A stretch of 64,000 bases of DNA from a bacterium UBP13_UBA5359 (GTDB lineage: Bacteria; UBP13; UBA5359). Shown here piece by piece: positions 13,231 to 25,877 of this stretch. The stretch's first letter is position 1; each line of letters opens with the position of its first letter. Location: the NCBI GenBank assembly GCA_002410925.1, contig DHPR01000004.1:1-64000 (forward strand), given 5' to 3'. Under the pieces are notes generated by a model. That model had not been told where the DNA came from and ran no database searches. It worked only from the letters and a program-made list of their open reading frames with translations. A program made the position numbers and the translations under genes.

Positions 13231-13283
13231 GATGCGGCTGAATGGCTGGTTATAGCCAGCCATTCAGCCGCATCCTGTTTTTT
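13231..13283 (+). terminator. Rho-independent terminator with a 19-bp perfect stem
   Basis: gatgcggctgaatggctgg / ccagccattcagccgcatc with 6-nt loop, followed by ctgtttttt. Confidence 0.8.
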
Positions 13284-13476
13284 AGCAGAACTTTGGCCAT
13301 TCTTCTACACGAGCCAAAGCATTTCAATAATTCATTTCAGCACCCATATTATCGCTGATAAAATCTTAATTATTCCCAATATATGGCGGTAAAAAATTTA
13401 GCATGAGAGTCAAAAATTAACGTCCGTAACTTCAAGCACCATAAATTGTGGTAGATGCAAGCACCTCTTAAATAAT

Positions 13477-13506
13477 TTGACTTAGCGCTTGGTTGGTTGC
13501 TAAGAT
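13477..13506 (+). promoter_or_regulatory. Putative sigma70-type promoter for the cas operon
   Basis: TTGACT - 18 nt - extended -10 TGcTAAGAT in an AT-rich region. Confidence 0.5.
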
Positions 13507-13782
13507 TGAATATAGGAGTTTTATTTATCATTAGCTTTACCGTATTCTTTTATGAGTAAGCAGAAGGAAAGCGGAGAAGTGTAAACGATGCTTTGTATCC
13601 AGCGAAAAAGCTGGGTGCAGGGATTACCGTTAAGAAGGTTAAGCGATACTTGATGGCATAGAAATGCTGCTGATCTTAGCGATACCAGCTTGGAAATTAT
13701 ACATTCTCGGCAAAAGTATCGTTACTGGACAGCTCGGTTATAGTAATGCGATAAAATTGAACCTTTAAAAGAGGTGTTACGG

Positions 13783-14997
13783 ATGATTAAGCAACAAAGG
13801 CCCTGCGATCGTCTTTTTCTGCTTGTAGGCTCCAACTCTTTTCCTAATTATCTAACCTCTCTTATTCTTAAACCCCGATCGATTATACTTTTTTATAGCC
13901 CGGAAACCGAAAAAATAAAGGACAACCTTAAAGATGGGCTGAAAGAAAAGCTGGCAGATTCATCCATAGATGAAATATGTGTGCGGAAAGCGACCGTTGC
14001 GACGGAAACATACAAAGTTTTTCATGAGGCTTTTCGTAAGACTTTTCATGAGACTTCTCGCGCGGCAAATATTCATCTGAATTACACCGGCGGTACGAAA
14101 ATTATGGCGGCCAATGCCCGAATGGCCTTTAAAGACGCCGGTGGTGAGGATAAACAAGCTTCGTATCTGGATGAGCGAAAGGGTATATTACGCTTCGATG
14201 ATGATTATGAAATCAAATTATCGACGGAGAGCTTTGAGCTAAAGTTGGATGATATTCTTAAATTGCATGGTATTAAAAAAAGAGCAAAGGAGAAGACCCC
14301 CTTCTCTTCGATTTTTAAGGATGCCGGCAGAATTTCAGAGTTGGAGTTAGCCGACAAAATTTTGAAGCTGGTTTGCAATGAACCGAAGTATGCAAAGGAG
14401 CTCTATGATAATTGCCAAGAAGCAAGCGCCATAAATCTCGGAAAGGAGCTGAAGAAGCTGCTGGATACTGATTTGAGCACTGTCTGTTTCACGGAAGACG
14501 GCTGGAGTAAAGATATTCGCAAAAAGGTAGCTGCCTTTTTCAAGGGGGGTTGGCTTGAAATTTGGTGTAGCGAATTATTGCGAGGCATGCTGAAAGGAAA
14601 TGAAGTATCGGTTAGCGTTAACTGTATACGTGCAAATGATCGCTCTTTTGAGATAGACCTGGCGGTTATTTATGAGCATCGCCTTTATGTGATTTCCTGC
14701 ACTACAGCCAGTGATTTGAAGTTGTGTAAGTCCAAGCTCTTTGAAGTGGCCATACGTGCCCGTCAGCTGGGCGGAGATCTCGCTCGTTCTGCTCTGGTTT
14801 GCCTATGTCATGGCAGTGATTCTAACGGCTCGTATGCGGGGCAGCTGCGCAAAGATATAGAAGATATTTGGGATGCTTCCAACACACCGCAAGTCTTTAA
14901 CCTGGATGATTTGAAAGATTGGGAAGGGTACAGCGGCAAGCGGAACACGAAACTTCTTAAGGATTGGATTGCATCGGATTCGGTCATCACTCGATAG
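13783..14997 (+). CDS. Can2/Card1-like (DUF1887) CARF + PD-(D/E)XK-fold nuclease, type III ancillary effector
   Basis: CARF strand LFLLVGSN.FPN, LNYTGGTKIM, GGWLE and FEIDLAVIYEHRLYVISCTT; first gene of the cas operon. Confidence 0.85.
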   Translation: MIKQQRPCDRLFLLVGSNSFPNYLTSLILKPRSIILFYSPETEKIKDNLKDGLKEKLADSSIDEICVRKATVATETYKVFHEAFRKTFHETSRAANIHLNYTGGTKIMAANARMAFKDAGGEDKQASYLDERKGILRFDDDYEIKLSTESFELKLDDILKLHGIKKRAKEKTPFSSIFKDAGRISELELADKILKLVCNEPKYAKELYDNCQEASAINLGKELKKLLDTDLSTVCFTEDGWSKDIRKKVAAFFKGGWLEIWCSELLRGMLKGNEVSVSVNCIRANDRSFEIDLAVIYEHRLYVISCTTASDLKLCKSKLFEVAIRARQLGGDLARSALVCLCHGSDSNGSYAGQLRKDIEDIWDASNTPQVFNLDDLKDWEGYSGKRNTKLLKDWIASDSVITR

Positions 14998-15007
14998 GAG
15001 GGAGAAT

Positions 15008-16585
15008 ATGCCTGTTTTGACTGCTCTTGATGTAATGGGAGTACAGCGTTTTGTCTTTTCTACCAATCGTTTGCAGGATGTAGTGGCCGGTTCATGGTTG
15101 GTGTATTGGAGCACTTCCAGCGATGGCGCACTACAAGATCTTATCCCAAAGGAGGATATATTTCTGGCTGGAGGCGGCAATGTTATTGCGAAATTCGAAT
15201 CTATTGAAGAGGCTCGCCAATTTACAGCAATTTATACTCGCCGTCTGTACGACAGAGTGCCCGGTTTGGAAGTTGCTGTAGTACATAAGCCTTTTGAAGA
15301 TGCCAAATTAGCAGAGGTACTCCAGGAAGTTCAAATTGAATTGGCACAAGCTAAAACCGAATATCTTCCAGGCGTGCCTCTTTTAGGCCTATCTGTAAAT
15401 GCGGCTTGCTGTGAAACCGGTTTGCCTGCAACAGGGTTTGACAGAAATGACCTGACGGCTCCGCTTTCTGCAGGAGTATTAAAGCGTCGAGAAGAGAGCA
15501 GCAATGCCTGTGAAAGGTGGATGCCATTTTTATATGCACATTCAGGATTTAATTTTCCTCTGGAATTGGATCACCTTGGCCGCACCTATGGTGAAACGAG
15601 CCAAATCGGCATAGTACATATTGATGGAAATGGAGTGGGTCAGAAGATCGCTGGGTGGTTGTCGAAAAAGGTTGAAGAGGGAGCAGAAGATAAGGATGTT
15701 CAACGAGAATACCGAGAATGGTCGCAAGCTATTGACGGCTTGGGCTTGAAAGCCTTTCAAGATATAGTGAACCGAGTTTGTCAAGCAACGGAAAAAAAGG
15801 ATGAAGAAATATGGATGATCGGAAAACCTACCGAATTAAGCTTTCGGCTGGCTAAAGTTAATGGCGGTTGGATGCTTCCCTTGCGCCCTATTCTGCTCGG
15901 AGGCGATGATTTGACCTTTGTCTGTGACGGTCGTATTGCTTTGGCTCTGGCGGAAACAGCACTTTCAGTATTTGACAAAAGCAATATTCCTCATCTGGGA
16001 AGGATATCTGCTTGTGCAGGGATTGCTATTGTTCGTGCTCATGCACCATTTATCCGGACTTATAAATTAGCTGAGAGCCTGTGCACATCTGCCAAGCGCA
16101 TGTTAAAAGAAGAAAAAGATTCCGGATGTGCTCTGGATTGGCACATTGGAAGTAGCCGTCCGGGTGAAAGTATATCCAGCATCCGTGAAAAGCAATACCA
16201 AATAAATGGATATAAGCTTACTTGCCGACCGTACCGATTGAATGCTAACAAAGACAAAGAGAGCGTAGAATCTTGGAGATGGTTATCAGAGACGCTTTTG
16301 GATGATTCTCAATGCGGCTTACGGGGCACGCGATGGTCCAAACGACGAAACAAAGTAAAGTCGTTCTGCAAGCTGATAAGAGGGGGGCCGGAAGTTATCC
16401 AAAAAGTGCTTAAAACATGGCAGGTGATAGATAACAAGCTCCAACTGCCGCAGGAAATCGAGAACGGTTTTTGGGCTGAATCTCGCACGCCTCTTTTAGA
16501 CGCACTGGAGTTGCTGGATTTACATCTTAATCTTGCTTTGAAATCGAATGATAATAATCTAAGAAATGGAGAGGAGAAGCGATGA
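15008..16585 (+). CDS. cas10: Cas10 of type III-D (no HD domain, intact palm-2 cyclase motif)
   Basis: DVMGVQRFVF start, AGGGN, HIDGNGVG, LRPILLGGDDLTFVC, SACAGIA and LAESLC..AK. Confidence 0.93.
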   Translation: MPVLTALDVMGVQRFVFSTNRLQDVVAGSWLVYWSTSSDGALQDLIPKEDIFLAGGGNVIAKFESIEEARQFTAIYTRRLYDRVPGLEVAVVHKPFEDAKLAEVLQEVQIELAQAKTEYLPGVPLLGLSVNAACCETGLPATGFDRNDLTAPLSAGVLKRREESSNACERWMPFLYAHSGFNFPLELDHLGRTYGETSQIGIVHIDGNGVGQKIAGWLSKKVEEGAEDKDVQREYREWSQAIDGLGLKAFQDIVNRVCQATEKKDEEIWMIGKPTELSFRLAKVNGGWMLPLRPILLGGDDLTFVCDGRIALALAETALSVFDKSNIPHLGRISACAGIAIVRAHAPFIRTYKLAESLCTSAKRMLKEEKDSGCALDWHIGSSRPGESISSIREKQYQINGYKLTCRPYRLNANKDKESVESWRWLSETLLDDSQCGLRGTRWSKRRNKVKSFCKLIRGGPEVIQKVLKTWQVIDNKLQLPQEIENGFWAESRTPLLDALELLDLHLNLALKSNDNNLRNGEEKR

Positions 16586-17220
16586 GGCAGAAGCAATTCA
16601 TACAGGTAGAGCTCCTTTCTGATTCCACTTTCAGCAAGGGTGAAGGTACGGCAGGGGCAGTAGATATAGAAATAGAACATGATAACCTTGGCCTTCCTTT
16701 TTTAGGCGGCAAAACACTTCAGGGTCTTCTGCGTGATTCCTGGCTCTCCATGCAGGGTTGCTTTTTAGAATTGGCCGAGGCATCAGAACGGGTATTTGGT
16801 CTGAAAGCAGATATGAAGAAAGGCTCAATTCTATGGATCGGCAATGCGATAGTGGCTGAAGATGATACGCGAATATGGGTTGAAGCAGCGGAAAGGCGGG
16901 GCAGCCATCCTCTTTCCTGGCAGGCTATATTAGAAGCACTTACCGATATTCGTCAGCAGACCTCTGAGGAGCGTAAAACCGGTGCTCCGGCTAAAACGAC
17001 TCTTCGCTCTATTCGTGTAGCTATTCGAGGCTTGAGACTTCAAGCTCCTCTGTTTTGGACAGCTGCCCCCGGCTCTGATGATCTTCGCTGTTTATCCTTG
17101 GCTTTGCTGGCAACACGCCATGCTGGATTATCTCGCAACCGTGGCCGCGGCCATATTCTTCTATCGCTAAACGGCGATTTAGAAAAAACCAGGCAGTTAG
17201 CAAGAGGAGGAGCAAAGTGA
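16582..17220 (+). CDS. cas7: Cas7 (Csm3-group RAMP), stand-alone
   Basis: ELLSD..F..GEG.AG.VD, GLPFLGGKTLQGLLR and C-terminal G-rich loop GLSRNRGRG. Confidence 0.88.
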   Translation: MRQKQFIQVELLSDSTFSKGEGTAGAVDIEIEHDNLGLPFLGGKTLQGLLRDSWLSMQGCFLELAEASERVFGLKADMKKGSILWIGNAIVAEDDTRIWVEAAERRGSHPLSWQAILEALTDIRQQTSEERKTGAPAKTTLRSIRVAIRGLRLQAPLFWTAAPGSDDLRCLSLALLATRHAGLSRNRGRGHILLSLNGDLEKTRQLARGGAK

Positions 17221-18893
17221 GCTGTTATCGATACTTGCCCTATACTTTGACATTAGGTGCTCCGGCCGTTATTACGGCTTTAGGAGGTGATCCAAACAGT
17301 TCTCTATGTTTGCCGTTCATTCCGGGTGCCGCTATACGGGGTGCAATGGCTGGCCGTCTTGGTAATTCGGGTACGGATAATGTTAAAGAAGAGGAATTTT
17401 ACGAGCTGGTTTTAGGTGGTAAAGTTCGATATCTGCATGCCTACCCAGCTCAGAATGATCGGCGTGCCTTACCGATACCGGTCTCTGTGCGGCTGAAAAA
17501 GGAGGCACAAAAAAGGCTTGAAAACATTGCTGCCGGAGATCTCGCTGCATATCCCTCGCTAGAAGGGAATGCGGTTGTAAATTGGCCGAAAGAGCAATTG
17601 GTGGCACCTGCAGAGAATTTTCTTACCATTGGGTCTTCTCGCCTAACTCTGGTTCAACCCGAAAGGAGTACTCGTATTCATCATCAACGAGATAGCAAAG
17701 GGGATTATTTGGGGCAAGATAAGCAGATACGTAATCACGGAGCAATCTTTTTCTTTGAATCTCTTGATGCCGGTCAATCTTTCAAAGGTTTGCTTCAGAT
17801 ACGCGGAGAGTCCGAAGAGGAATGCGAGCAACTTGCTAAGCGAGTTCAGACGTTATTAAAAGAAGAGATATTCGTAGGGCGATCCAAACGTGCAGGCTAT
17901 GGAGGCATGGCTAAAATTGAATGGGACGAAAGTCGAAAAAATGAGGTTGAAGGAGCTGGAACTGACGGTTTTCAGCCTATAACTTGTGATATTGAACCGG
18001 ATATGAAATTTCGCTTGCTTTTGACCTCAGCCTGCATCGTGCGTAATCCGGATACGGGACAGATTGACCCCGGTGCTTTAAAGGTATTGATCAGCCGGTA
18101 TCTGGAAGATAAAGTGGAATGGGTTTGCAGCAGATGGGCATTTGCAACCGTTGGCGGATTTAACCGTAAGTGGCGGCTGGAAACACCCCAGGCTCTAGCT
18201 GTAGCAGCCGGTTCAGTTGTTGTGCTTAAGGCAAAACAGCCGATTTTAATTGATGAGCTATACCGTGTGGAGCATGAAGGCTTGGGGGAGCGCAGAGAGG
18301 AAGGATACGGCCGTGTGCTTTTTCTTAAAGAAGGACTTTCGCCGCAGGTCTTTCTACATCAGGAGAAGAAAGCTTTATCAAGCTTTCTGTTAGGCAAAAA
18401 TCCGCCGCAACTTGTTTCTATTATCGAAAAACGTATTATCGATGTGCAGATCATTAAGCAGATCGAAGAAAAGGCATTATCAATTGCAAAAAGTGCGAAA
18501 AATCTTCCCAGCTCCAGTCTCTTGGGACGGTTACGAACTCCCTTGCGAAATGACCCTGAAAAAGCGCTGAAAACCATTAAGGACTGGTTGCAAGAAGGGG
18601 ATAAGGACAAATGCTTAAAACGAGCTGCCATGGATCAATTGAATGGGTGCTTTATAGAATGGAAAAACAGAAAACACAGTTTACTTGAATGGCTGATGGA
18701 AGCGATTGATGAAAATAAAATTCTTGATTGGCTGCAGACATCGGTGATAGCGCAACGAGGCCATCTCATTTCAGAAAAATCCGCAATGAATTTTCTTCAC
18801 GCAAAATCAGAAGAGCTATCTGTTCGCCTCATTGATGCTCTGTTTTCTGCTATGGCCCTGAGGAACAAGAAAAAGGAGGCCGATGATGAGTAA
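17217..18893 (+). CDS. csx10: Csx10-type Cas5 RAMP with a helical C-terminal region (probable fused Cas11 small subunit)
   Basis: FIPGAAIRGA, G-loops GRSKRAGYG and GLGERREEGYG, GGFNRKWRL, AGSV; helical tail with PSSSLLGRLR. Confidence 0.82.
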   Translation: MSCYRYLPYTLTLGAPAVITALGGDPNSSLCLPFIPGAAIRGAMAGRLGNSGTDNVKEEEFYELVLGGKVRYLHAYPAQNDRRALPIPVSVRLKKEAQKRLENIAAGDLAAYPSLEGNAVVNWPKEQLVAPAENFLTIGSSRLTLVQPERSTRIHHQRDSKGDYLGQDKQIRNHGAIFFFESLDAGQSFKGLLQIRGESEEECEQLAKRVQTLLKEEIFVGRSKRAGYGGMAKIEWDESRKNEVEGAGTDGFQPITCDIEPDMKFRLLLTSACIVRNPDTGQIDPGALKVLISRYLEDKVEWVCSRWAFATVGGFNRKWRLETPQALAVAAGSVVVLKAKQPILIDELYRVEHEGLGERREEGYGRVLFLKEGLSPQVFLHQEKKALSSFLLGKNPPQLVSIIEKRIIDVQIIKQIEEKALSIAKSAKNLPSSSLLGRLRTPLRNDPEKALKTIKDWLQEGDKDKCLKRAAMDQLNGCFIEWKNRKHSLLEWLMEAIDENKILDWLQTSVIAQRGHLISEKSAMNFLHAKSEELSVRLIDALFSAMALRNKKKEADDE

Positions 18894-20337
18894 TCAAGCA
18901 TCGATATCAGGGTGTAACAATAATATACGAATTATGATTGCTCGCTGGGTTGTCACTGGCGAGATTATGCTTAAAACGGCTACTCATTTGGGAGGCTCTG
19001 CGGATGTTGCCATTGATATGCCCCTGCTAAGAGATTCTAAAGATGGCGTGCCTCTGCTTCCGGGAACATCTTTGGCCGGTGCATTGCGCAGCCATCTGGC
19101 TGATATTCTTGGTGGATACCGATCAGAAGAGGTTGCGGACGTAGCTGCTTTGTTCGGTGCAGCCATGTGTGATCATGAAGGGATAGAAAGCCCTTTGATT
19201 GTTTTTGATTCCCTGGGGCGATTGCCGGACGGTATGGCTGTGGAAATCCGTGATGGCGTTGCTCTTGAACCGGCAAGTGGTACAGCCCAGATGCATAAGA
19301 AATTTGATATGGAGGTACTCCCGGCAGGGACGGTTTTTCCTATTCGGGTGGAATTGATAATCTCGAATATCGGCAGGGAATCTAAATTAATCAATCTTTT
19401 AGCAGAAACGTTAAATGGCTTAGCGGAAGGAGAGGTCTCTCTTGGAATGAGGCGCTCCAGGGGATTAGGGGCGATTGCTGCCCAAAATTGGCGTGCTATT
19501 CGGTATGATCTGGCTTCACAAGAGGGTTGGCTCAATTATCTGACTGCAGATGCTCTGACCCCTATAAGCGACGATGTCGAGGCTCATTCTTCTCCATGGA
19601 AGGCTTGCTGTAATGCTTACGCATCTATTAACCAGGAAGAGCTCCCTGATAAGCGGCAGCGGATAATTATTGAGGCGAAACTATCTTTCTCTGGAGGGAT
19701 CTTGGTGCGTAGTCCGGCAGTCACAGCTGATGCTCCGGATGCGGTACATCTTATTTCCGGCGGACGGTCTATTTTACCGGGCACAAGTTTGGCCGGCGTG
19801 CTGAGGAATAGAGCGCTGAGAATTGCTCGTATTGTTCGCAATAAAAAGAATGATGCGGAGGGCTGGATTGAGAGAATTTTCGGATCGCGATTGGAAGAAA
19901 ATATCAAGGTTGAATCCTCCGCTTCTCGCCTGAAAATCTCTGAGAACGTGATCACGGATGGAGTGCGAATTAGGCCTTCCCGTACTCGTATTGATCGGTT
20001 TACGCAAGGGGTAACCAAAGGTGCACTCTTTGATGAAGAACCGCATTATGATGGAAAAACAACGGTACGCCTGGAGCTGCGAAAACCATTATCCGGGGAG
20101 GCCGGATTGCTTCTGTTATTGTTAAAAGATCTGCTTTCCGGTGATCTGAATGTGGGTGGCGCAGGTTCCATAGGCCGTGGAGTAATTAAAGGCACAGCTA
20201 AAATTCGTTTTGGTGATAGGGCAGAAAGAGAGGTAAGGGTTACTGGAGAGGACCTTAAGGTTGCAGCTGATGATAGGGATTTTTTGAATAAAGAAATAGA
20301 GAAGTTTTATACGGAGGTGCTTTGTGAACCGGCTTGA
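18883..20337 (+). CDS. cas7: Tandem Cas7-Cas7 RAMP fusion
   Basis: Two LPGTSLAG.LR repeats and two G-loops (GMRRSRGLG, GGAGSIGRG). Confidence 0.9.
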   Translation: MMSNQASISGCNNNIRIMIARWVVTGEIMLKTATHLGGSADVAIDMPLLRDSKDGVPLLPGTSLAGALRSHLADILGGYRSEEVADVAALFGAAMCDHEGIESPLIVFDSLGRLPDGMAVEIRDGVALEPASGTAQMHKKFDMEVLPAGTVFPIRVELIISNIGRESKLINLLAETLNGLAEGEVSLGMRRSRGLGAIAAQNWRAIRYDLASQEGWLNYLTADALTPISDDVEAHSSPWKACCNAYASINQEELPDKRQRIIIEAKLSFSGGILVRSPAVTADAPDAVHLISGGRSILPGTSLAGVLRNRALRIARIVRNKKNDAEGWIERIFGSRLEENIKVESSASRLKISENVITDGVRIRPSRTRIDRFTQGVTKGALFDEEPHYDGKTTVRLELRKPLSGEAGLLLLLLKDLLSGDLNVGGAGSIGRGVIKGTAKIRFGDRAEREVRVTGEDLKVAADDRDFLNKEIEKFYTEVLCEPA

Positions 20338-20935
20338 AGGATGCAGGATAGAGAGGCTGGATAATCAAGCGTGTCAGATTGTTCTAAGACAAGTGCTCGA
20401 AAGAGAAGAAATGGAAGATGGCGTTAATACTCTTTCTTGGCTCTTGGCATATTGTCATGATGGTGTGACATGGGGAAGATATGAAAGCTCCAGGCGATGT
20501 TGGCAGCTATCCACCAATGCATTTCCAGATTTATGTCCCCAGATTTCCTGCTCCAATCTTTTGGAACTTCGTCTGTTTGGTTCTGAAAGTGAAATAATGC
20601 TTTGGAAAGCAGATGGCAGCTTATCCGGCCGGCTGATGTGCAATCAGCCGGCTGAAAAGAAGGCTTCTTCTGTTCAGCCGGGAAGTGAGACGCGTATTCT
20701 ATTAGGAGATCGCATCATAGGAGAGCCTAGAGAGGGTTTTACTAGAGTAGGAACAGCCAGCGGAATGGAGCAGGCCGTTCCTTTGGAATGCAAGAAAAAG
20801 GACTTCGATGATGGGCGTTGGCCGCTTCGCTTGAAAGTGCGACATTACTTTGAACAGGACAGGAAGACTGGTGCAGTTCGCGTGGCTGCAACGCGTCTTG
20901 TAGAAGTTTTTAAGGAGGCTGTTAATGCATACTAA
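20324..20935 (+). CDS. csx19: CRISPR-associated Csx19 (type III-D signature subunit)
   Basis: WLLAYCHDGVTWG, LELRLF...EIMLW and C-terminal L.VRHYF...RLV; position between Cas7-Cas7 and Cas7-insertion. Confidence 0.85.
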   Translation: MNRLEGCRIERLDNQACQIVLRQVLEREEMEDGVNTLSWLLAYCHDGVTWGRYESSRRCWQLSTNAFPDLCPQISCSNLLELRLFGSESEIMLWKADGSLSGRLMCNQPAEKKASSVQPGSETRILLGDRIIGEPREGFTRVGTASGMEQAVPLECKKKDFDDGRWPLRLKVRHYFEQDRKTGAVRVAATRLVEVFKEAVNAY

Positions 20936-22892
20936 TCCGACAAATGAAAAAACTGCCACTGCCCCTTACAATTTTGTTCCTTTACCCAATTCTGTTTACA
21001 CTCTGGATAATGGTATTGAAGTCAATGGCCAAAGGATTGAGCATGATCACTTTGTACCGGAAACGCACAGTGGGTGGCTTGATCTTGCGATTGAAACTCT
21101 AACGCCGTTATTTATTCGTGGGCCGATAACCAAAAGCGATGAGGATTGGAACAAGCGAGAGCTGCGTTTGCAATCGGAGCCTTTCACTACGCCGGATGGC
21201 AGGCCTTTAATCCCTGGCTCCGGCCTGCGAGGTATGATTCGAACCTTGATAGAAATTCTTTCCTTTAGCAAGATCGTACCGGTGACGAAGGAGAAAGCCT
21301 TCTTCAGAAATATGGGGAAGGATCGAGTCAGCAAGCTTTATCGCAAAAAAATGATATGTGAAAATAAAAAGCCGAGCGGAGGGTACGTCAAAGAAGATAA
21401 TGGCCAATGGGTTATTGTTCCCGCAAAGGAAGTGTTAAGAATTAGTAAAAAAGGGTTGAATACACTAGGGCTAAATATTCTTGAAAAGCGAGAGGGAAGA
21501 GATTATCCTAATTGGAAAGCCCAGCATAAACAATGTTGGTTTAAGCGTGACGATCGGATAAATTATCGAGTAAAAAAGATTTATCTTAGCCTTCAAAGGG
21601 GTTTGGAAGAGGGCACTCTGGTTCTTTCCGGCAATGTGCCAAATAAGGTGTATGATTTTGTATTCGTGGGGCAGGACGAAGAGCATCAGGTTGTTATTCC
21701 CAATAAGATCTGGCAGCGATTTCACGGTGAAAGCCAGATTACTCAATGGCAAGAGATTGCTTTTCCGCAAAACGAACCCGAGAAGGGTTGCCGTAGGGGT
21801 AAAGGCCACTTATGTAATGGCGAACCGGTATTTTTTTTAACGAATGATTCTGCCAAATCTGATGAAAATCCGGAAGGACTGATATTTTTTGGCCGAGCCC
21901 AGATGTTCCGTTTTCCTTATGATCATAGTCCAAATGATTTGATTCCTCAAAAAATCAAAAATGCCGGTCTGGATTTGGCCGAAGCTATGTTCGGAATGGT
22001 TGATAAGAAGAAGGATCTGGCCATTAAAGGGCGAGTTTTTTTCGAAGATGCTGTAGTTAACGGCGGCAGACAGGCATGGCTAGAGAAAATCATAGTGCCG
22101 CGTATACTTTCCTCACCCAAGATAACCTGCTTTCAGCATTATCTGGTTCAGAACGGAAGCTCCCCAAAAGAGCTGCTTACATATCTATCGGAAGACCAAG
22201 CAGTTATCCGTGGTCATAAGCTATATTGGCACCGCTGGGACATAAACCGGGGACTTGATGCCGTTAAAGAATCTGATAAATATGATGAGCTATTGAATGA
22301 ATTGCAATCCGGCAAACCTAAAGAAGACTCTCAACATACGCTTATTCAGCCTGTTAAAGCAGGTGTGACCTTTAATGGACGTATCCGCTTTGAAAATTTA
22401 ACAGATATTGAATTGGGAGCCTTGCTCTGTGCATTGCAACTTCCAAAGGGCTGTGCTCACAAGCTGGGAATGGGAAAACCCCTTGGCCTGGGAACTGTGC
22501 AAATAGAATCAAAACTTAACCTCATTGATAGAGTTAAGAGATATGCATGTTGGGAGAATAACGGTAGTTTTCAAAATGATGGAAGCGATTTTATTAAGAA
22601 ATTTGAAGAAGCGATGCTTGTTCATGCCCGAAAGAGCCAGGAAAAGATGAATGAGAGCAAGACCGGCCTGCAGAAAATCGCTCGATTAGAAGTGCTGTTT
22701 CACCTTTTAAATTGGGAGAAAAGGCCGCAACTTTCCAGCACCGATTACATGAGGGTAGATGATTTTCGTTCCAGGTCGATTCTTCCAACGCCGTGTGAAG
22801 TGTTTGAAAAGGGAGAACCTGCCCGAGCATCTGATTTGCTAAAATCAAAAGAGCAGGCTTGGGCAAAGCAAGGCAAAGCACACAAGAGATAG
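20925..22892 (+). CDS. cas7: Cas7 with large insertion (TIGR03986-family RAMP)
   Basis: APYNFVPL, TLTPLFIRG, IPGSGLRGMIR, GRVFFEDA, RGHKLYWH, FENL...ELGALL and KLGMGKPLGLG. Confidence 0.9.
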   Translation: MHTNPTNEKTATAPYNFVPLPNSVYTLDNGIEVNGQRIEHDHFVPETHSGWLDLAIETLTPLFIRGPITKSDEDWNKRELRLQSEPFTTPDGRPLIPGSGLRGMIRTLIEILSFSKIVPVTKEKAFFRNMGKDRVSKLYRKKMICENKKPSGGYVKEDNGQWVIVPAKEVLRISKKGLNTLGLNILEKREGRDYPNWKAQHKQCWFKRDDRINYRVKKIYLSLQRGLEEGTLVLSGNVPNKVYDFVFVGQDEEHQVVIPNKIWQRFHGESQITQWQEIAFPQNEPEKGCRRGKGHLCNGEPVFFLTNDSAKSDENPEGLIFFGRAQMFRFPYDHSPNDLIPQKIKNAGLDLAEAMFGMVDKKKDLAIKGRVFFEDAVVNGGRQAWLEKIIVPRILSSPKITCFQHYLVQNGSSPKELLTYLSEDQAVIRGHKLYWHRWDINRGLDAVKESDKYDELLNELQSGKPKEDSQHTLIQPVKAGVTFNGRIRFENLTDIELGALLCALQLPKGCAHKLGMGKPLGLGTVQIESKLNLIDRVKRYACWENNGSFQNDGSDFIKKFEEAMLVHARKSQEKMNESKTGLQKIARLEVLFHLLNWEKRPQLSSTDYMRVDDFRSRSILPTPCEVFEKGEPARASDLLKSKEQAWAKQGKAHKR

Positions 22893-23138
22893 CGCAACAG
22901 ATGTTGTCAAAACGGTAATACCTTCCTCTTCGGAGCGAATCAAACCTATTGAGCAAGGGCAAACACGTAGAGGTTTGTTGAAGCGAGACCGCGACCAATG
23001 GAGCGCCCGATTTGAAGGCGATGATCTGTAACGAAGGTGAAATTCCTGAAGGGCAACCGAAGATTGCAGTGCGAATTTTTTATTGTCAAACAAAATAAAA
23101 AAGTTGGAATTAGGGTTCGTTTTGAAAAGCTTCTCTAA
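22893..23138 (+). pseudogene. Frameshifted remnant of the Cas7-insertion C-terminal extension
   Basis: Removing one copy of the 10-nt duplication at 22862-22880 reads through into DSATDVVKTVIPSSSERIKPIEQGQTRRGLLKRDRDQWSARFEGDDL; a later frame gives EFFIVKQNKKVGIRVRFEKLL*. Confidence 0.55.
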
Positions 23139-23183
23139 ATAGCAGAGCGATAAAATTTATCTTTAGCAAAGAGGGAGTGCAAA

Positions 23184-24449
23184 ATGAAGTGGCTGATAAT
23201 TACTGTGGGGTGGTCTTCCCAGCCGATAGTAACATCTATAAAGACATGGCACCCAGACCGAGTGGCCTTTGTTTGTTCTGATAACAGCAATGAAAATAAA
23301 AGCTCATGTCGGCAGATAATGGGAGAGGGTTTAGTTTGTTCATCCAAGGATGATGGAAAGGAACAGAATTTGCCTAATATACCGACTCAGGCTGGGTTAA
23401 ATGAAGAACAGTATAAGGATTACTTGATTACTGTGCCGGCGGATGATATTGAGAGTGCTTATGACAGAATAGTTAAACGTATTGCCGACATAAGGGCAGA
23501 GGATAAGAATGCAACCATTACCGCCGATTATACCGGCGGCACCAAATCCATGTCTATTGCGCTTGCTATGGCAGCAATTGATGATGGCAATATAATAGAT
23601 ATAAAATTTGTTACCGGACCCAGGCAGGATCTGCCGAAGGTGACTTTGGGTGAATCTTTGAGGCCGGCCAAGGTTACTGGAATACGCATAAGACACATTT
23701 CGAAAGAGATCAATTTGCTGATGAAAGAGCTTCAATATGCAGCGGCTGCCAATCTGTTGGCCGAGTTTATCGCTGAAATAGATGTGGATTCAAGCTGGCA
23801 AAAGGCGGTGAATTGTTTGCAGGCATTTGATGCCTGGAACAGATTTGATTATCAATATGCTCTCGAGCTTTTCAGGGCTGTGGGAGGAGAGAAGAATGAA
23901 AAATTTTTAAAGGTGTTGGGGTGTTTAGCTTCATCTGATAGACCTGCTTGGGAGAGCCGAAGTGGCTATCTTCTGGCAAGAGATCTTCTGAGTAATGCTG
24001 CAAGGCAGGCGGCACAGTGCAGATATGAGGATGCTGCAGCCAGGCATTATCGTGCTGTAGAATTAGTGGCTCAAACACAGCTTTTTATGCGCCATAAGAT
24101 AACGACAGCCTCTGTTATGTATGACCAAATACCATCAGATATTTTCTGGAAACCTGAAATAGATAACGGCCCTTTGGAAATAGGTCTGTTCAGAGCATGG
24201 GAGCTGGCGGCAGCTCTGGACAGCAAGGTTGGAGATCTCTTTAATGAATGGCGCGCCCGGCTAAAAGAAGCGATAAAGATTAGAAATATGAGCTTGTGTG
24301 CACATGGAACCGCTGTTATTACGCGTAGTGATTATGATAATGACAGCTCTAACGGCATGCGTGCTTTTGCATCTGCTGCCATCAAGCTTCTGGATAGCGG
24401 CGGACCGAAGATTCCGGAATTTCCGAGAAACCTGGAAGCTTTAACGTAA
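23184..24449 (+). CDS. TIGR02710-type CRISPR-associated CARF protein with C-terminal HEPN-like RNase motif (Csm6-like)
   Basis: ITVGWSSQP, DYTGGTKSMS, AFDAWNRFDY..A, YEDAAAR.YRAVE..AQ and RNMSLCAHG. Confidence 0.85.
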   Translation: MKWLIITVGWSSQPIVTSIKTWHPDRVAFVCSDNSNENKSSCRQIMGEGLVCSSKDDGKEQNLPNIPTQAGLNEEQYKDYLITVPADDIESAYDRIVKRIADIRAEDKNATITADYTGGTKSMSIALAMAAIDDGNIIDIKFVTGPRQDLPKVTLGESLRPAKVTGIRIRHISKEINLLMKELQYAAAANLLAEFIAEIDVDSSWQKAVNCLQAFDAWNRFDYQYALELFRAVGGEKNEKFLKVLGCLASSDRPAWESRSGYLLARDLLSNAARQAAQCRYEDAAARHYRAVELVAQTQLFMRHKITTASVMYDQIPSDIFWKPEIDNGPLEIGLFRAWELAAALDSKVGDLFNEWRARLKEAIKIRNMSLCAHGTAVITRSDYDNDSSNGMRAFASAAIKLLDSGGPKIPEFPRNLEALT

Positions 24450-24599
24450 AAGCGCTTGCCTTAACGTTGTGTAAGATAAAGCCGTGTATTTAATTACCCG
24501 ATTATCCGGAGAGGAAAAACAGGAATGAATAGAGAATGGCCGTCTTGCTAAATTACCTTGGAAAGGAGAGACGGCCCTCTGTATAGCTGAGAATAATTG

Positions 24600-24628
24600 T
24601 TTGCGTCCTGATTTAATAAGCGTATAAT
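24600..24628 (+). promoter_or_regulatory. Putative sigma70-type promoter for the L,D-transpeptidase gene
   Basis: TTGCGT at 24601 and TATAAT at 24623 (16-17 nt spacing). Confidence 0.5.
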
Positions 24629-24638
24629 TACATAAGAA

Positions 24639-25877
24639 GTGATAATAGCCGCAATGCATCATGAGCGAGGAGGCCTGAGAAGCATTAAACGCTGCATATT
24701 AACTATTCTATCACTCTTCTTAATTTTACAACCTCTGGCTGCCCAGCCTCTGAATCGCCTTACCGGCAGGGCTCTTCTCTATGAAGTCAAAGAAGGCGAG
24801 AGCTTCTACAGCATTGCTCGCTCCCATGGATTGGGGAGCTGGCATTTGCGCCGTGCCAACCCGGGTATGTATGAGTGCCGGCCGGGAGTGCGGCTGCTGT
24901 TGCCGCTGCAGCGAATTGTGCCGAAATATCAGGGCAGTGGAGTGGTGGTGAATTTGCCGGAGAGAATGCTCTACGTCTTTACGAACGGTTCTCTCGAAAC
25001 TTTTTATCCTATAGCCATCGGCCGGCCTGAATTGCGCTGGCAGACTCCCGTCGGCAATTATCACGTCGCCTTCAAAGCCATCAACCCTACCTGGTATCCT
25101 CCCAGGTGGGCTGGACTGGAAAAGCCGGTGCCTCCCGGGCAGAATAATCCTCTTGGCGACAGGTGGATCGGCCTGTCAAAATCAGGTTACGGATTTCACG
25201 GTACGCCATCGTTGTACAGCATAGGTCTATCCGCTTCCCATGGGTGCATGCGTATGTACCCTGAACATGTTCAAAGCCTTTATCGTTCGTTGAAACGTGG
25301 TTCCAGGGTAGAAGTGATCTATCGTCCGGTGCTGTTGTCGCTGGATAAAGAGGCTGGAGAGTGCCGTCTTTCCGTCTTTCCCGATGTTTATGGCCGTACA
25401 GGCAGCTTATATGCTTGCGCCGTCAAGCTTCTTGAGGAAGCCGGATTGGCCCGAGCGACGGACAAGAGCCTGTTAGCGGGTATAATCAAGCGGGCGGCCG
25501 GTCTTTCGGAGCCTTTGCTTTCCACGACAAAGATTTACTTCTGTGGACGACAGCTGCCTGCAAAGCATATGGTTATTCATGAAGAAGGGGAGATATATCT
25601 GGAGAAGGGAGATCTAGCTCTTTGCCGGGCGTTTGTCGGTTTTCCTGATAGCTATGCTCCGACCGGCATAACCGGCAGCTCGCGGTCTCTTCAGGCCTTG
25701 TCATATCTAGAGAACCCTGCTACTCTGATTTTTAGTAAAACCGGCAAAGCTTACAGGCAGATACTAGGCGGTGATTATTTGCCCTTTCTTCCGTTTGCCA
25801 AATCTATCGGTCTTATCTGTATCATGGAGGGTAATAGACTCTTTTTGGTTACCGTGAGGCCGGAAGCTGGAAATTAA
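24639..25877 (+). CDS. L,D-transpeptidase (YkuD family) with N-terminal LysM domain; start uncertain
   Basis: YEVKEGESFYSIA LysM, YPIAIG, NPLGDRW and YGFHGT....IG..ASHGCMRM catalytic motif. Confidence 0.88.
   Translation: MIIAAMHHERGGLRSIKRCILTILSLFLILQPLAAQPLNRLTGRALLYEVKEGESFYSIARSHGLGSWHLRRANPGMYECRPGVRLLLPLQRIVPKYQGSGVVVNLPERMLYVFTNGSLETFYPIAIGRPELRWQTPVGNYHVAFKAINPTWYPPRWAGLEKPVPPGQNNPLGDRWIGLSKSGYGFHGTPSLYSIGLSASHGCMRMYPEHVQSLYRSLKRGSRVEVIYRPVLLSLDKEAGECRLSVFPDVYGRTGSLYACAVKLLEEAGLARATDKSLLAGIIKRAAGLSEPLLSTTKIYFCGRQLPAKHMVIHEEGEIYLEKGDLALCRAFVGFPDSYAPTGITGSSRSLQALSYLENPATLIFSKTGKAYRQILGGDYLPFLPFAKSIGLICIMEGNRLFLVTVRPEAGN

What the first reader, a model, noticed from the sequence alone, without database searches (positions are those of the whole stretch)
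13783..24449. Type III-Dv-like CRISPR effector with unfused Cas7 and two different cOA-activated effectors
Seen: order CARF nuclease - cas10 (no HD, GGDD intact) - cas7 - cas5(+helical tail) - cas7-cas7 - csx19 - cas7-insertion - CARF-HEPN, with overlapping start/stop codons in the core. Established: Synechocystis III-Dv has cas10, Cas7-Cas5-Cas11, Cas7-Cas7, Csx19 and Cas7-insertion, and III-D variants are viewed as intermediates toward single-protein III-E. Here the first Cas7 is a separate ORF (GTGA overlap, own GGAGG RBS), so this may be a less-fused stage. Candidate catalytic Asp residues are visible in three Cas7 domains (AGAVD, DVAID, ADAPD). Inference: with no HD domain, immunity would rely on target RNA cleavage plus cyclic oligoadenylate signalling.
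Basis: partly seen in the sequence, partly recalled or inferred. Interest (0 to 1): 0.8.

Follow-up and report, generated by a model that had tools for sequence, protein, structure and literature searches.

The report
Ordinary type III-D CRISPR effector module

Summary
Window 13783-24449 (+) encodes a Can2-like CARF nuclease, an HD-less Cas10 with GGDD, a stand-alone Cas7, Cas5/Csx10 with a C-terminal helical domain, Cas7-2x, Csx19, Cas7-insertion and a CARF-HEPN RNase. Core genes have overlapping start and stop codons. Folded alone, the helical tail matches the Cas11 domain of Synechocystis Cas7-Cas5-Cas11 (Z 12.4), then Csm2/Cmr5, so it is a Cas5-Cas11 fusion.

The interpretation that the layout is notable does not hold. 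Of 80 related loci, all 71 that hold both genes keep cas7 and cas5 in separate frames. All 55 with all six core genes share the window's order, and 56 of 70 with cas10 have the Can2-like gene just upstream. PADLOC already has separate models for the stand-alone Cas7 and for Cas5 plus tail. Fused Cas7-Cas5 forms are rare: 5 clusters.

The window has no array or cas6. The genome carries I-B and I-C systems with arrays elsewhere, and a same-genus genome has the I-B operon directly after III-D. Likely mechanism (inferred): Cas6b-made crRNAs, three-site RNA cleavage, cA4 signalling.

Verdict: new member of a known kind, low interest.

The parts
13231..13274 (+). Strong terminator-like hairpin (20-bp stem, T run) that closes the upstream tsaE-tsaB-rimI-tsaD-TPR operon. 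An AT-rich, roughly 500-nt spacer follows before the CRISPR module.
   Evidence: pattern scan only; sequence; upstream genes
13783..14997 (+). Can2/Card1-like ancillary nuclease: CARF sensor plus PD-(D/E)xK nuclease domain. The ExD, SxTT and K positions align with TbrCan2.
   Evidence: PADLOC Csx1 1e-73 and CARF_PDDEXK 4e-54. Pfam Card1_endonuc above cut-off. PDB sequence hits 8q44/8q3y (TbrCan2) 1.4e-22 and 7bdv Can2 1e-05. Motif named in PMC10783487.
15008..16585 (+). cas10 (525 aa from ATG 15008): no HD domain, cyclase palm domains with GGDD intact.
   Evidence: PADLOC Cas10d 1.2e-117, full model. 8s9t_C Synechocystis III-Dv Cas10 2.2e-29 with GGDD aligned. GGDD kept in 63-64 of 64 relatives. 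Start and RBS.
16582..17220 (+). Stand-alone cas7 (212 aa), counterpart of the N-terminal Cas7 domain of Synechocystis Cas7-Cas5-Cas11. D28 is the candidate catalytic Asp.
   Evidence: PADLOC Cas7_IIId 207-position model 4.8e-54. Profile A4 hits 8s9t_A residues 5-216, 6.6e-17, with D28 opposite Syn D26. D28 invariant in 44 of 44 sequences.
17217..18893 (+). cas5 (csx10) fused to a C-terminal Cas11-like helical domain (residues about 395-558).
   Evidence: PADLOC Cas5_IIId 499-position model 3.8e-106. AF2 model pLDDT 86.9. Foldseek top hit 8s9t_A, E 2.8e-26. Tail alone: pLDDT 90, VIA Z 12.4 to 8s9u_A residues 621-781, then Csm2/Cmr5 at Z 4.7-6.3.
18883..20337 (+). cas7-2x, a fusion of two Cas7 domains. 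D45 and D286 are the candidate catalytic Asp residues.
   Evidence: PADLOC Cas7_IIId 417-position model 1.8e-116. 8s9t_D Cas7-2x 1.2e-23, D45 opposite Syn D33. D45 kept in 60 of 65 and D286 in 64 of 65 relatives.
20324..20935 (+). csx19, a small beta-rich core subunit specific to III-D.
   Evidence: TIGR03984 6.6e-26, 91 bits against a cut-off of 35. PADLOC Csx19 1.6e-19.
20925..22892 (+). cas7 with a large insertion domain (Cas7-insertion).
   Evidence: TIGR03986 3.1e-118, above cut-off. Partial hits to the C-terminal Cas7 of the III-E gRAMP. PADLOC Cas7_IIId 8.3e-148.
23184..24449 (+). CARF-HEPN (Csm6/Csx1-class) ancillary RNase. An R-x6-H stretch (RNMSLCAH) lies in the HEPN part.
   Evidence: TIGR02710 2.3e-44, above cut-off. 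Pfam Csm6 HEPN 8.9e-21. PADLOC CARF_HEPN 6.6e-111. Sequence. No solved relative by sequence.

Best explanation
This is a complete, apparently functional type III-D CRISPR-Cas interference module of the III-Dv kind. One copy each of Cas10 (no HD), Cas7, Cas5-Cas11, Cas7-2x, Csx19 and Cas7-insertion would assemble on a crRNA. That crRNA would be made in trans, most likely from the genome's type I-B array by Cas6b, with the 8-nt tag AUUGAAAC. Binding of a complementary foreign transcript would lead to RNA cleavage at up to three sites. The catalytic aspartates would be D28 of Cas7 and D45 and D286 of Cas7-2x. Binding would also switch on the Cas10 palm domains to make cyclic oligoadenylate, most likely cA4. 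The signal would activate the Can2-like single-strand DNase/RNase encoded upstream and the CARF-HEPN RNase encoded downstream. Shown here: gene content, domain identities, conserved residues, the Cas11-like fold of the tail, how widespread the layout is, and the presence of I-B and I-C systems with arrays elsewhere in the genome. Inferred: stoichiometry, cleavage sites, the cOA species and the crRNA source.
For: Family hits for all eight genes. Sequence homology to the solved Synechocystis III-Dv subunits: Cas10 2.2e-29, Cas7-2x 1.2e-23, Cas5 6.4e-04, Cas7 by profile 6.6e-17. Fold: full Cas5-tail model hits 8s9t_A at E 2.8e-26. The tail alone gives Z 12.4 and rmsd 2.7 A over 149 residues to residues 621-781 of 8s9u_A, followed by Csm2 and Cmr5 chains. 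Conserved residues: GGDD in 63-64 of 64, palm-1 D206 in 64 of 64, D45 in 60 of 65, D286 in 64 of 65, D28 in 44 of 44. D28 and D45 align with D26 and D33, which PMC11026444 names as active-site residues. The closest solved relative of the upstream nuclease, TbrCan2, is activated by cA4 and not by cA3 or cA6 (PMC10783487, passages; hit). crRNA source: no repeats in the window. The only Cas6 found (one Pfam Cas6 family searched) lies in a I-B operon on contig C7. The I-B array (26 repeats on the end of C23, continuing onto the start of C7) and the I-C array both end in ATTGAAAC when read in the leader-to-array direction. In the same-genus genome G002 the III-D operon is followed directly by a I-B operon 73-91% identical to this genome's. 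One related III-D locus (L056) sits next to an array whose repeat shares the 3' 18 nt with the I-B repeat here.
Against: Nothing has been measured. No cas6, array or adaptation genes lie within 13 kb upstream or 40 kb downstream, so crRNA supply is only inferred. The tail has no detectable sequence similarity to any solved Cas11 (profile search), and Foldseek E-values for the tail alone are 0.13-0.34. Helical bundles can reach Z of about 13 by chance (tool note). The Can2-like protein has A where TbrCan2 has the last S of SxTTS, and S360A reduced activity in TbrCan2. A III-D2 Cas10 makes SAM-AMP rather than cOA (PMC13294483), so GGDD alone does not fix the product. The ligand of the CARF-HEPN protein is unknown, with no solved relative by sequence. 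Locus GC is 0.45 against 0.51 in the flanks. A same-genus genome has lost the module, so it is dispensable.
Confidence: 0.85

Rival explanations
1. The module signals with a non-cOA nucleotide, such as the SAM-AMP made by type III-D2 and some III-B systems, and the CARF proteins are not its main effectors.
For: A III-D2 Cas10 makes SAM-AMP and SAM-AMP2 (PMC13294483, abstract and sections 4 and 15). The product of this Cas10 clade has not been measured; PMC11026444 says cOA production in III-Dv needs future study.
Against: Both flanking accessory genes carry CARF sensor domains. A Can2-like gene lies directly upstream of cas10 in 56 of 70 related loci that have cas10. No CorA-type hit appeared among the nine proteins scanned, which span 13774-25877. 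The motif is GGDD here, whereas the III-D2 catalytic pair is D347/E348. TbrCan2, from a III-D locus, responds to cA4.
Confidence: 0.05
2. The module is an orphan, non-functional remnant. It has been cut off from array, cas6 and adaptation genes and is on its way to loss.
For: No array or cas6 in the 64-kb window. In same-genus genome G001 the Cas5 query found no match; an IS200-like element sits on both contig ends and only a 3' remnant of the CARF-HEPN gene is left. Locus GC is lower than the flanks.
Against: All eight frames are open with ribosome-binding sites and coupled junctions. Every catalytic or conserved residue checked is intact. The genome holds a Cas6b and two arrays whose repeats end in the usual 8-nt tag. 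Only 12 of 80 related loci show an array within the fetched stretch, so distance from an array is common for this module.
Confidence: 0.08
3. The cas7/cas5 split is an assembly or frameshift artefact of a fused cas7-cas5-cas11 gene like that of Synechocystis.
For: Fused forms exist among relatives: 5 clusters of 759-828 aa.
Against: The two genes lie in separate frames in 71 of 71 related loci that hold both. The start and stop overlap as NTGA in 52 of 57 loci. There is a good RBS before the GTG. No linker is present: Cas7 ends at 212 aa and Cas5 homology starts at residue 6, whereas fused forms carry linkers of roughly 20-65 aa by blastp coordinates.
Confidence: 0.01

Closest known systems
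Synechocystis sp. PCC 6803 type III-Dv effector (PDB 8S9T/U/V/X; PMC11026444)
   Same: HD-less Cas10 with GGDD, Cas7-2x, Csx19, Cas7-insertion and a Cas11-like domain attached to Cas5, in the same domain order. The Cas7 aspartates D28 and D45 align with its D26 and D33; D286 is conserved near its D246. It also has two CARF accessory proteins nearby.
   Different: The first Cas7 is a separate gene here, with a GTGA overlap, instead of being linked to Cas5 by a roughly 20-residue linker. There is no cas6, adaptation genes or array beside the operon. The accessory pair is Can2-like plus CARF-HEPN rather than Csm6 plus Csx1. Sequence identity is low: 15-18% in the structural alignments.
The widespread six-gene III-D layout found in 55 of the 80 related genome loci examined (for example Desulfacinum infernum DSM 9756, Nitrosovibrio sp. 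Nv17, Nostoc sp. NIES-4103, Chloroflexus sp. MS-G)
   Same: Identical order cas10 - cas7 - cas5+tail - cas7-2x - csx19 - cas7-insertion in 55 of 55 loci that hold all six genes. A Can2-like gene lies upstream in 56 of 70 loci with cas10. The NTGA cas7/cas5 junction is present in 52 of 57 loci.
   Different: A homologue of the downstream CARF-HEPN gene was found in only 3 of 80 fetched loci (L028, L040, L041). Cas5 identity is 26-65%.
Type III-D1 as described in print (four separate cas7 genes, separate cas11, csx10, csx19; bioRxiv 10.1101/2022.06.13.496011 passages, PMC13294483 introduction)
   Same: csx10-type Cas5, Csx19 and Cas10, with the same domain order.
   Different: Here two Cas7 domains are fused (Cas7-2x), Cas11 is fused to Cas5, and the last Cas7 carries the large insertion.
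TbrCan2 (Thermoanaerobacter brockii Can2, PDB 8Q3Y-8Q44; PMC10783487)
   Same: CARF plus PD-(D/E)xK architecture. The ExD, SxTT and K positions align. It comes from a type III-D locus.
   Different: Low overall identity, with phmmer E 1.4e-22 in two stretches. The last S of SxTTS is A here. Activation by cA4 is inferred, not tested.

Membership tests
Type III-D CRISPR-Cas | csx10-type Cas5 | tested here: met
   PADLOC Cas5_IIId 3.8e-106. TIGR02674 Csx10 2.5e-26 but below its curated cut-off (92.8 against 177.3 bits). Homologues are named Csx10 by their sources.
Type III-D CRISPR-Cas | Csx19 subunit | tested here: met
   TIGR03984 at 91 bits, cut-off 35.
Type III-D CRISPR-Cas | Cas10 of the III-D clade | tested here: met
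   PADLOC Cas10d 1.2e-117. Best solved relative is III-Dv Cas10, 2.2e-29. No phylogeny was built.
Type III-Dv (Synechocystis variant) | Cas7-2x (two fused Cas7 domains) | tested here: met
   Two RAMP stretches. PADLOC 417-position model 1.8e-116. 8s9t_D 1.2e-23.
Type III-Dv (Synechocystis variant) | Cas7 with a large insertion | tested here: met
   TIGR03986 3.1e-118.
Type III-Dv (Synechocystis variant) | Cas11 domain fused to Cas5 | tested here: met
   Tail model Z 12.4 to residues 621-781 of 8s9u_A, followed by Csm2/Cmr5 chains. No sequence-level support.
Type III-Dv (Synechocystis variant) | First Cas7 fused to Cas5 (Cas7-Cas5-Cas11 in one chain) | tested here: not met
   Separate ORFs with a GTGA overlap. 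The same holds in 71 of 71 related loci.
Type III-D1 (as described in print) | Four separate cas7 genes and a separate cas11 | tested here: not met
   Cas7-2x and Cas5-Cas11 fusions are present. Definition taken passages.
Type III-D2 | Cas7x3 and Cas7-5 fusions, no Csx19 or Cas11, CorA effector | tested here: not met
   Gene content. Definition from PMC13294483 introduction.
Type III-E | Single gRAMP/Cas7-11 protein, no Cas10 or Cas5 | tested here: not met
   Only partial, below-cut-off hits to the gRAMP models. Cas10 and Cas5 are present.
Can2/Card1 ancillary nucleases | CARF domain plus PD-(D/E)xK nuclease with the E-ExD-SxTTS-K motif | tested here: met
   Motif from PMC10783487. The ExD, S-x-T-T and K positions are present, and the fifth position is A instead of S.
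Can2/Card1 ancillary nucleases | Activation by cA4 | not testable with these tools
   Needs biochemistry. Inferred from TbrCan2.
Csm6/Csx1-class CARF-HEPN RNases | N-terminal CARF, C-terminal HEPN with an R-x4-6-H motif | tested here: met
   TIGR02710 above cut-off. Pfam Csm6 HEPN 8.9e-21. RNMSLCAH is seen in the sequence. The motif definition is recalled, not from a call.

The most novel reading that the evidence does not exclude
The layout cas7 | cas5-cas11 | cas7-2x | csx19 | cas7-insertion, often preceded by can2, is the main natural form of this III-D branch across many phyla. It is a widespread intermediate that the printed III-D1 -> III-Dv -> III-D2 -> III-E scheme does not name. The Cas7-Cas5 fusion of Synechocystis would then be a rare, repeatedly arising derivative. 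A further speculation is that the two CARF effectors here read different cOA species from one Cas10.
Probability: 0.35. Interest if true: 0.3.

Novelty: new member of a known kind. Interest (0 to 1): 0.15.

Why it matters
It matters little beyond annotation. The locus adds one more intact III-D module, from a poorly sampled small-genome lineage. It shows a type III effector living apart from the type I-B system that probably feeds it. One modest point for specialists: in the 80 related loci examined, the unfused Cas7 next to a Cas5-Cas11 fusion is the rule. Papers that present Synechocystis III-Dv as 'the' intermediate between III-D1 and III-E therefore describe the rarer fused state. I found no paper in the searchable library that names the Cas7 | Cas5-Cas11 layout. 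Supplements of those papers and of classification papers could not be read and may show it.

Tried and rejected
1. A second type III system on contig C13: the weak Cas10-palm hit is an 812-aa frame, and that protein had no PADLOC hit at 1e-05. Of its nine neighbours only one hit, a dGTPase model. Rejected.

2. A CRISPR array in the window: TRF and direct-repeat scans found none, and Rfam found no family in the window.

3. Sequence-level proof that the tail is Cas11: the profile of 20 tails against PDB sequences gave only chance hits. The question was settled by fold instead.

4. Cas7 alone against PDB sequences gave nothing. The 44-sequence profile was needed.

5. CARF-HEPN against PDB sequences gave nothing, so its ligand is left open.

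6. Earlier notes of this scan: three look-ups, nothing found.

7. Not done: Cas10 phylogeny, a tree to test whether Cas7-Cas5 fusions arose independently, a complex prediction, and a read-mapping or expression check. None was needed for the verdict.

8. Bias to note: the 80 loci are the best 80 of 475 relatives found with an alignment of unfused Cas5 proteins. Distant fused forms such as Synechocystis are under-sampled, so '71 of 71' describes this branch and not all III-D systems.

Full report
**What is there**

On the + strand between 13783 and 24449 lie eight intact genes.

- **13783-14997:** CARF plus PD-(D/E)xK nuclease. PADLOC Csx1 scores 1e-73, and Pfam Card1_endonuc is above its cut-off.
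- **cas10:** the longest frame starts at TTG 14969. The likely start is ATG 15008, behind GGAGGG and right after the CARF stop codon.
- **16582-17220:** a 212-aa Cas7.
- **17217-18893:** a 558-aa Cas5/Csx10 with a long C-terminal extension.
- **18883-20337:** a two-domain Cas7 (Cas7-2x).
- **20324-20935:** Csx19.
- **20925-22892:** a Cas7 with a large insertion.
- **23184-24449:** after a 292-nt gap, a CARF-HEPN protein of the TIGR02710 family.

All assignments rest on HMM hits with E-values from 1e-19 to 1e-148. NCBIfam models for Csx19, Cas7-insertion and the CARF-HEPN protein are passed above their curated cut-offs.

The core genes are coupled. The cas10/cas7 junction is ATGA and the cas7/cas5 junction is GTGA behind AGAGGAGG. 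Taking each ORF's first in-frame start, the next three junctions overlap by 11, 14 and 11 nt.

Cas10 begins directly with its palm domain. The Cas10d model is covered end to end, and no HD family is hit at E<=0.01. GGDD is present.

**Surroundings**

- **Upstream:** a housekeeping operon (radical SAM, AIR-synthase-like, tsaE, tsaB, rimI, tsaD, a TPR protein). It ends in a strong terminator-like hairpin at 13231-13274.
- **Downstream:** an L,D-transpeptidase with LysM, then hisI and trpE.
- **Composition:** the module has 0.45 GC against 0.51 on both sides.
- **Arrays and RNA families:** no CRISPR array lies in the 64-kb window, and Rfam finds no family there.

**The Cas5 tail is Cas11-like**

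The full 558-aa protein, folded with 62 homologues, gave pLDDT 86.9. Its best Foldseek match is chain A of the Synechocystis III-Dv complex (Cas7-Cas5-Cas11), at E 2.8e-26 over 600 alignment columns. Cmr3 and Csm4 chains follow.

The tail alone (residues 385-558, 20-sequence alignment) folded at pLDDT 90 as a helical bundle. Against 350,542 PDB chains, its four best Foldseek rows are the four III-Dv chain A entries. Their TM-scores are 0.54-0.61 and probabilities 0.96-0.99, but the E-values are only 0.13-0.34.

VIA-align places the tail on residues 621-781 of 8s9u_A with Z 12.4 and rmsd 2.7 A over 149 residues. That stretch lies beyond the K602-T624 linker that the preprint places before the Cas11 domain. 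The next rows are Csm2 chains (Z 5.8-6.3) and Cmr5 chains (Z 4.7-5.1).

Two cautions apply. Helical bundles can score this high by chance (tool note), and a sequence profile of the tail finds no solved relative. Even so, the Cas11 family dominates the list, and the match covers the right part of the right protein. I accept the tail as a Cas11-like domain.

**Catalytic residues**

- **D28 of the stand-alone Cas7:** a 44-sequence profile hits residues 5-216 of 8s9t_A at 6.6e-17. D28 is invariant in 44 of 44 sequences and sits opposite Synechocystis D26.
- **D45 of Cas7-2x:** it aligns with Synechocystis D33 and is kept in 60 of 65 relatives.
- **D286 of Cas7-2x:** it is kept in 64 of 65 relatives. 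It lies close to the position of Synechocystis D246, but the pairwise alignment does not reach that residue.

PMC11026444 names D26, D33 and D246 as the metal-binding residues of its three cleavage sites (passages). GGDD is kept in 63-64 of 64 Cas10 relatives, and the palm-1 Asp in 64 of 64.

**How common the layout is**

The Cas5-plus-tail protein has 334 database relatives at E<=1e-05. Of the 120 listed, 115 are 530-590 aa and cover the query end to end at 42-65% identity. Sources name them Csx10, in organisms from Desulfatirhabdium to Nitrosovibrio.

A scan of one genome per prokaryotic species found 475 encoding stretches, and the best 80 were fetched. I blasted the window's eight proteins against all stop-to-stop frames of these loci.

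| Feature | Loci with it | Loci examined |
|---|---|---|
| cas7 and cas5 in separate frames | 71 | 71 that hold both genes |
| Same order and strand as the window | 55 | 55 with all six core genes |
| Can2-like gene directly upstream of cas10 | 56 | 70 with cas10 |
| NTGA overlap at the cas7/cas5 junction | 52 | 57 |
| Homologue of the CARF-HEPN gene | 3 | 80 |
| Array within the fetched stretch | 12 | 80 |

The host organisms span Desulfobacterota, Chloroflexota, Cyanobacteria, Acidobacteriota, Planctomycetota, Bacillota and others (record titles).

Fused Cas7-Cas5-tail proteins exist but are few. A search for longer relatives of the stand-alone Cas7 found 5 clusters of 759-828 aa. They carry linkers between the domains.

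PADLOC's library already separates three states:
- plain Csx10 models of 338-402 positions;
- a Cas5-plus-tail model of 499 positions, matched here over its full length;
- Cas7-fused models of 679 and 709 positions.

It also has a 207-position stand-alone Cas7_IIId model.

One limit applies. The 80 loci were chosen by likeness to unfused Cas5 proteins, so the counts describe this branch and not every III-D system.

**Where the crRNA would come from**

The genome is 2.25 Mb in 40 contigs and 98% complete. It holds two other CRISPR systems.

- **Type I-B:** the operon cas6b-cas8b-cas7b-cas5b-cas3-cas4-cas1 lies on contig C7. Its array of 26 repeats sits on the end of C23, and the first bases of C7 are the tail of that repeat.
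- **Type I-C:** this operon lies on C40. Its array is split between the end of C7 and the start of C40, with 8 and 33 repeats.

Read from the leader side, both repeats end in ATTGAAAC. From my own knowledge, not from a call, that is the usual 8-nt 5' tag of Cas6-processed type III crRNAs.

Only one Cas6 was found (one Pfam Cas6 family searched). The only credible Cas10 is the one in the window: the weak second hit on C13 has no defence-model hit.

In the same-genus genome G002, the III-D operon sits at the same place after tsaD and is 72-76% identical in DNA. There it is followed by cas6b-cas8b-cas7b-cas5b-cas3, which are 73-91% identical to this genome's I-B proteins. One related III-D locus (L056) lies beside an array whose repeat shares its last 18 nt with the I-B repeat here.

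I infer that this III-D complex is loaded with I-B array crRNAs cut by Cas6b. This is inference, not observation.

**Signal and effectors**

The upstream nuclease's best solved relatives are the TbrCan2 entries 8Q3Y-8Q44 (1.4e-22) and Can2 7BDV. PMC10783487 (abstract and passages) calls TbrCan2 a 'type III-D ancillary nuclease'. The paper reports that it:
- is activated by cA4 and not by cA3 or cA6;
- cuts single-stranded DNA and RNA;
- carries an E-ExD-SxTTS-K motif.

The window protein has the ExD, S-x-T-T and K positions, with A in place of the last S.

The downstream protein has a CARF domain and a Csm6-type HEPN domain with RNMSLCAH. It has no solved relative by sequence, so its ligand is open.

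A III-D2 Cas10 makes SAM-AMP (PMC13294483). That system uses CorA, however, and has a D/E catalytic pair. Here both effectors are CARF proteins and the motif is GGDD, so cOA, most likely cA4, is the better-supported signal.

**Comparison with known kinds**

PMC13294483 (introduction) and the 2022 preprint (passages) define the subtypes as follows:
- **III-D1:** separate cas7 genes and a separate cas11.
- **III-Dv:** Cas7-2x, Cas7-Cas5-Cas11, Csx19 and Cas7-insertion.
- **III-D2:** Cas7x3 plus Cas7-5 with CorA.

This locus meets every III-Dv feature except the Cas7-Cas5 link. It fails the III-D1, III-D2 and III-E definitions.

That state is the common one, though. Two full-text searches found no paper that names a Cas7 | Cas5-Cas11 layout. 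Supplements were closed and may show it.

**Verdict**

The locus is a real, intact and well-conserved type III-D module, and an ordinary one. It is a new member of a known kind, and interest is low. The only mildly new point is that the unfused layout is the widespread one and the fused Synechocystis form is the exception.

Noticed in passing
L095:1-494 and L098:1-433 (same-genus genome G001, contigs C13 and C53): The Cas5 query found no match in G001. The tsaD-TPR side and the ykuD side each end at a contig break. Both breaks carry the same element, which encodes an IS200-like Y1 transposase fragment (Pfam 5.3e-06). A 90%-identical 3' remnant of the CARF-HEPN gene (window 24183 onward) is left next to ykuD. 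This looks like a deletion of the module linked to the insertion element.
   Followed up: partly
L011:15343-20345 (same-genus genome G002): Directly after cas7-insertion comes a type I-B operon (cas6b, cas8b, cas7b, cas5b, start of cas3). It is 73-91% identical to the I-B proteins on contig C7 of this genome. No CARF-HEPN homologue was found in that locus.
   Followed up: yes
G000 contigs C23 (end), C7 (both ends), C40 (start): Contig ends fall inside CRISPR arrays. The C23 end joins the C7 start (I-B array, leader, cas2-side). The C7 end joins the C40 start (I-C array). The assembly could be scaffolded C23-C7-C40.
   Followed up: partly
G000:C13:358623-361061 (- strand): An 812-aa protein gives a weak, below-cut-off hit to the Cas10 palm-2 model (21 bits). 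It has no defence-model hit. Of its nine neighbours scanned, one matched a dGTPase model. It is probably an unrelated cyclase or polymerase-palm protein.
   Followed up: partly
window 14019-14056: A 12-nt tandem repeat (3.2 copies, 80% matches) lies inside the Can2-like gene. It encodes a short repeated peptide stretch in the CARF part. Probably of no consequence.
   Followed up: no
window 13276-24449: The module has 0.45 GC against 0.51 in both flanks. Its proteins are 65% identical to those of the same-genus genome, while flanking TsaD is 87% identical. This fits faster turnover or exchange of the defence module at a fixed site.
   Followed up: partly
window 20925-22892 versus L011:12381-14810: Cas7-insertion is 655 aa here but 809 aa in the same-genus genome. 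The DNA alignment breaks inside the insertion domain (window 21297-21711), so that domain varies in size even between close relatives.
   Followed up: no
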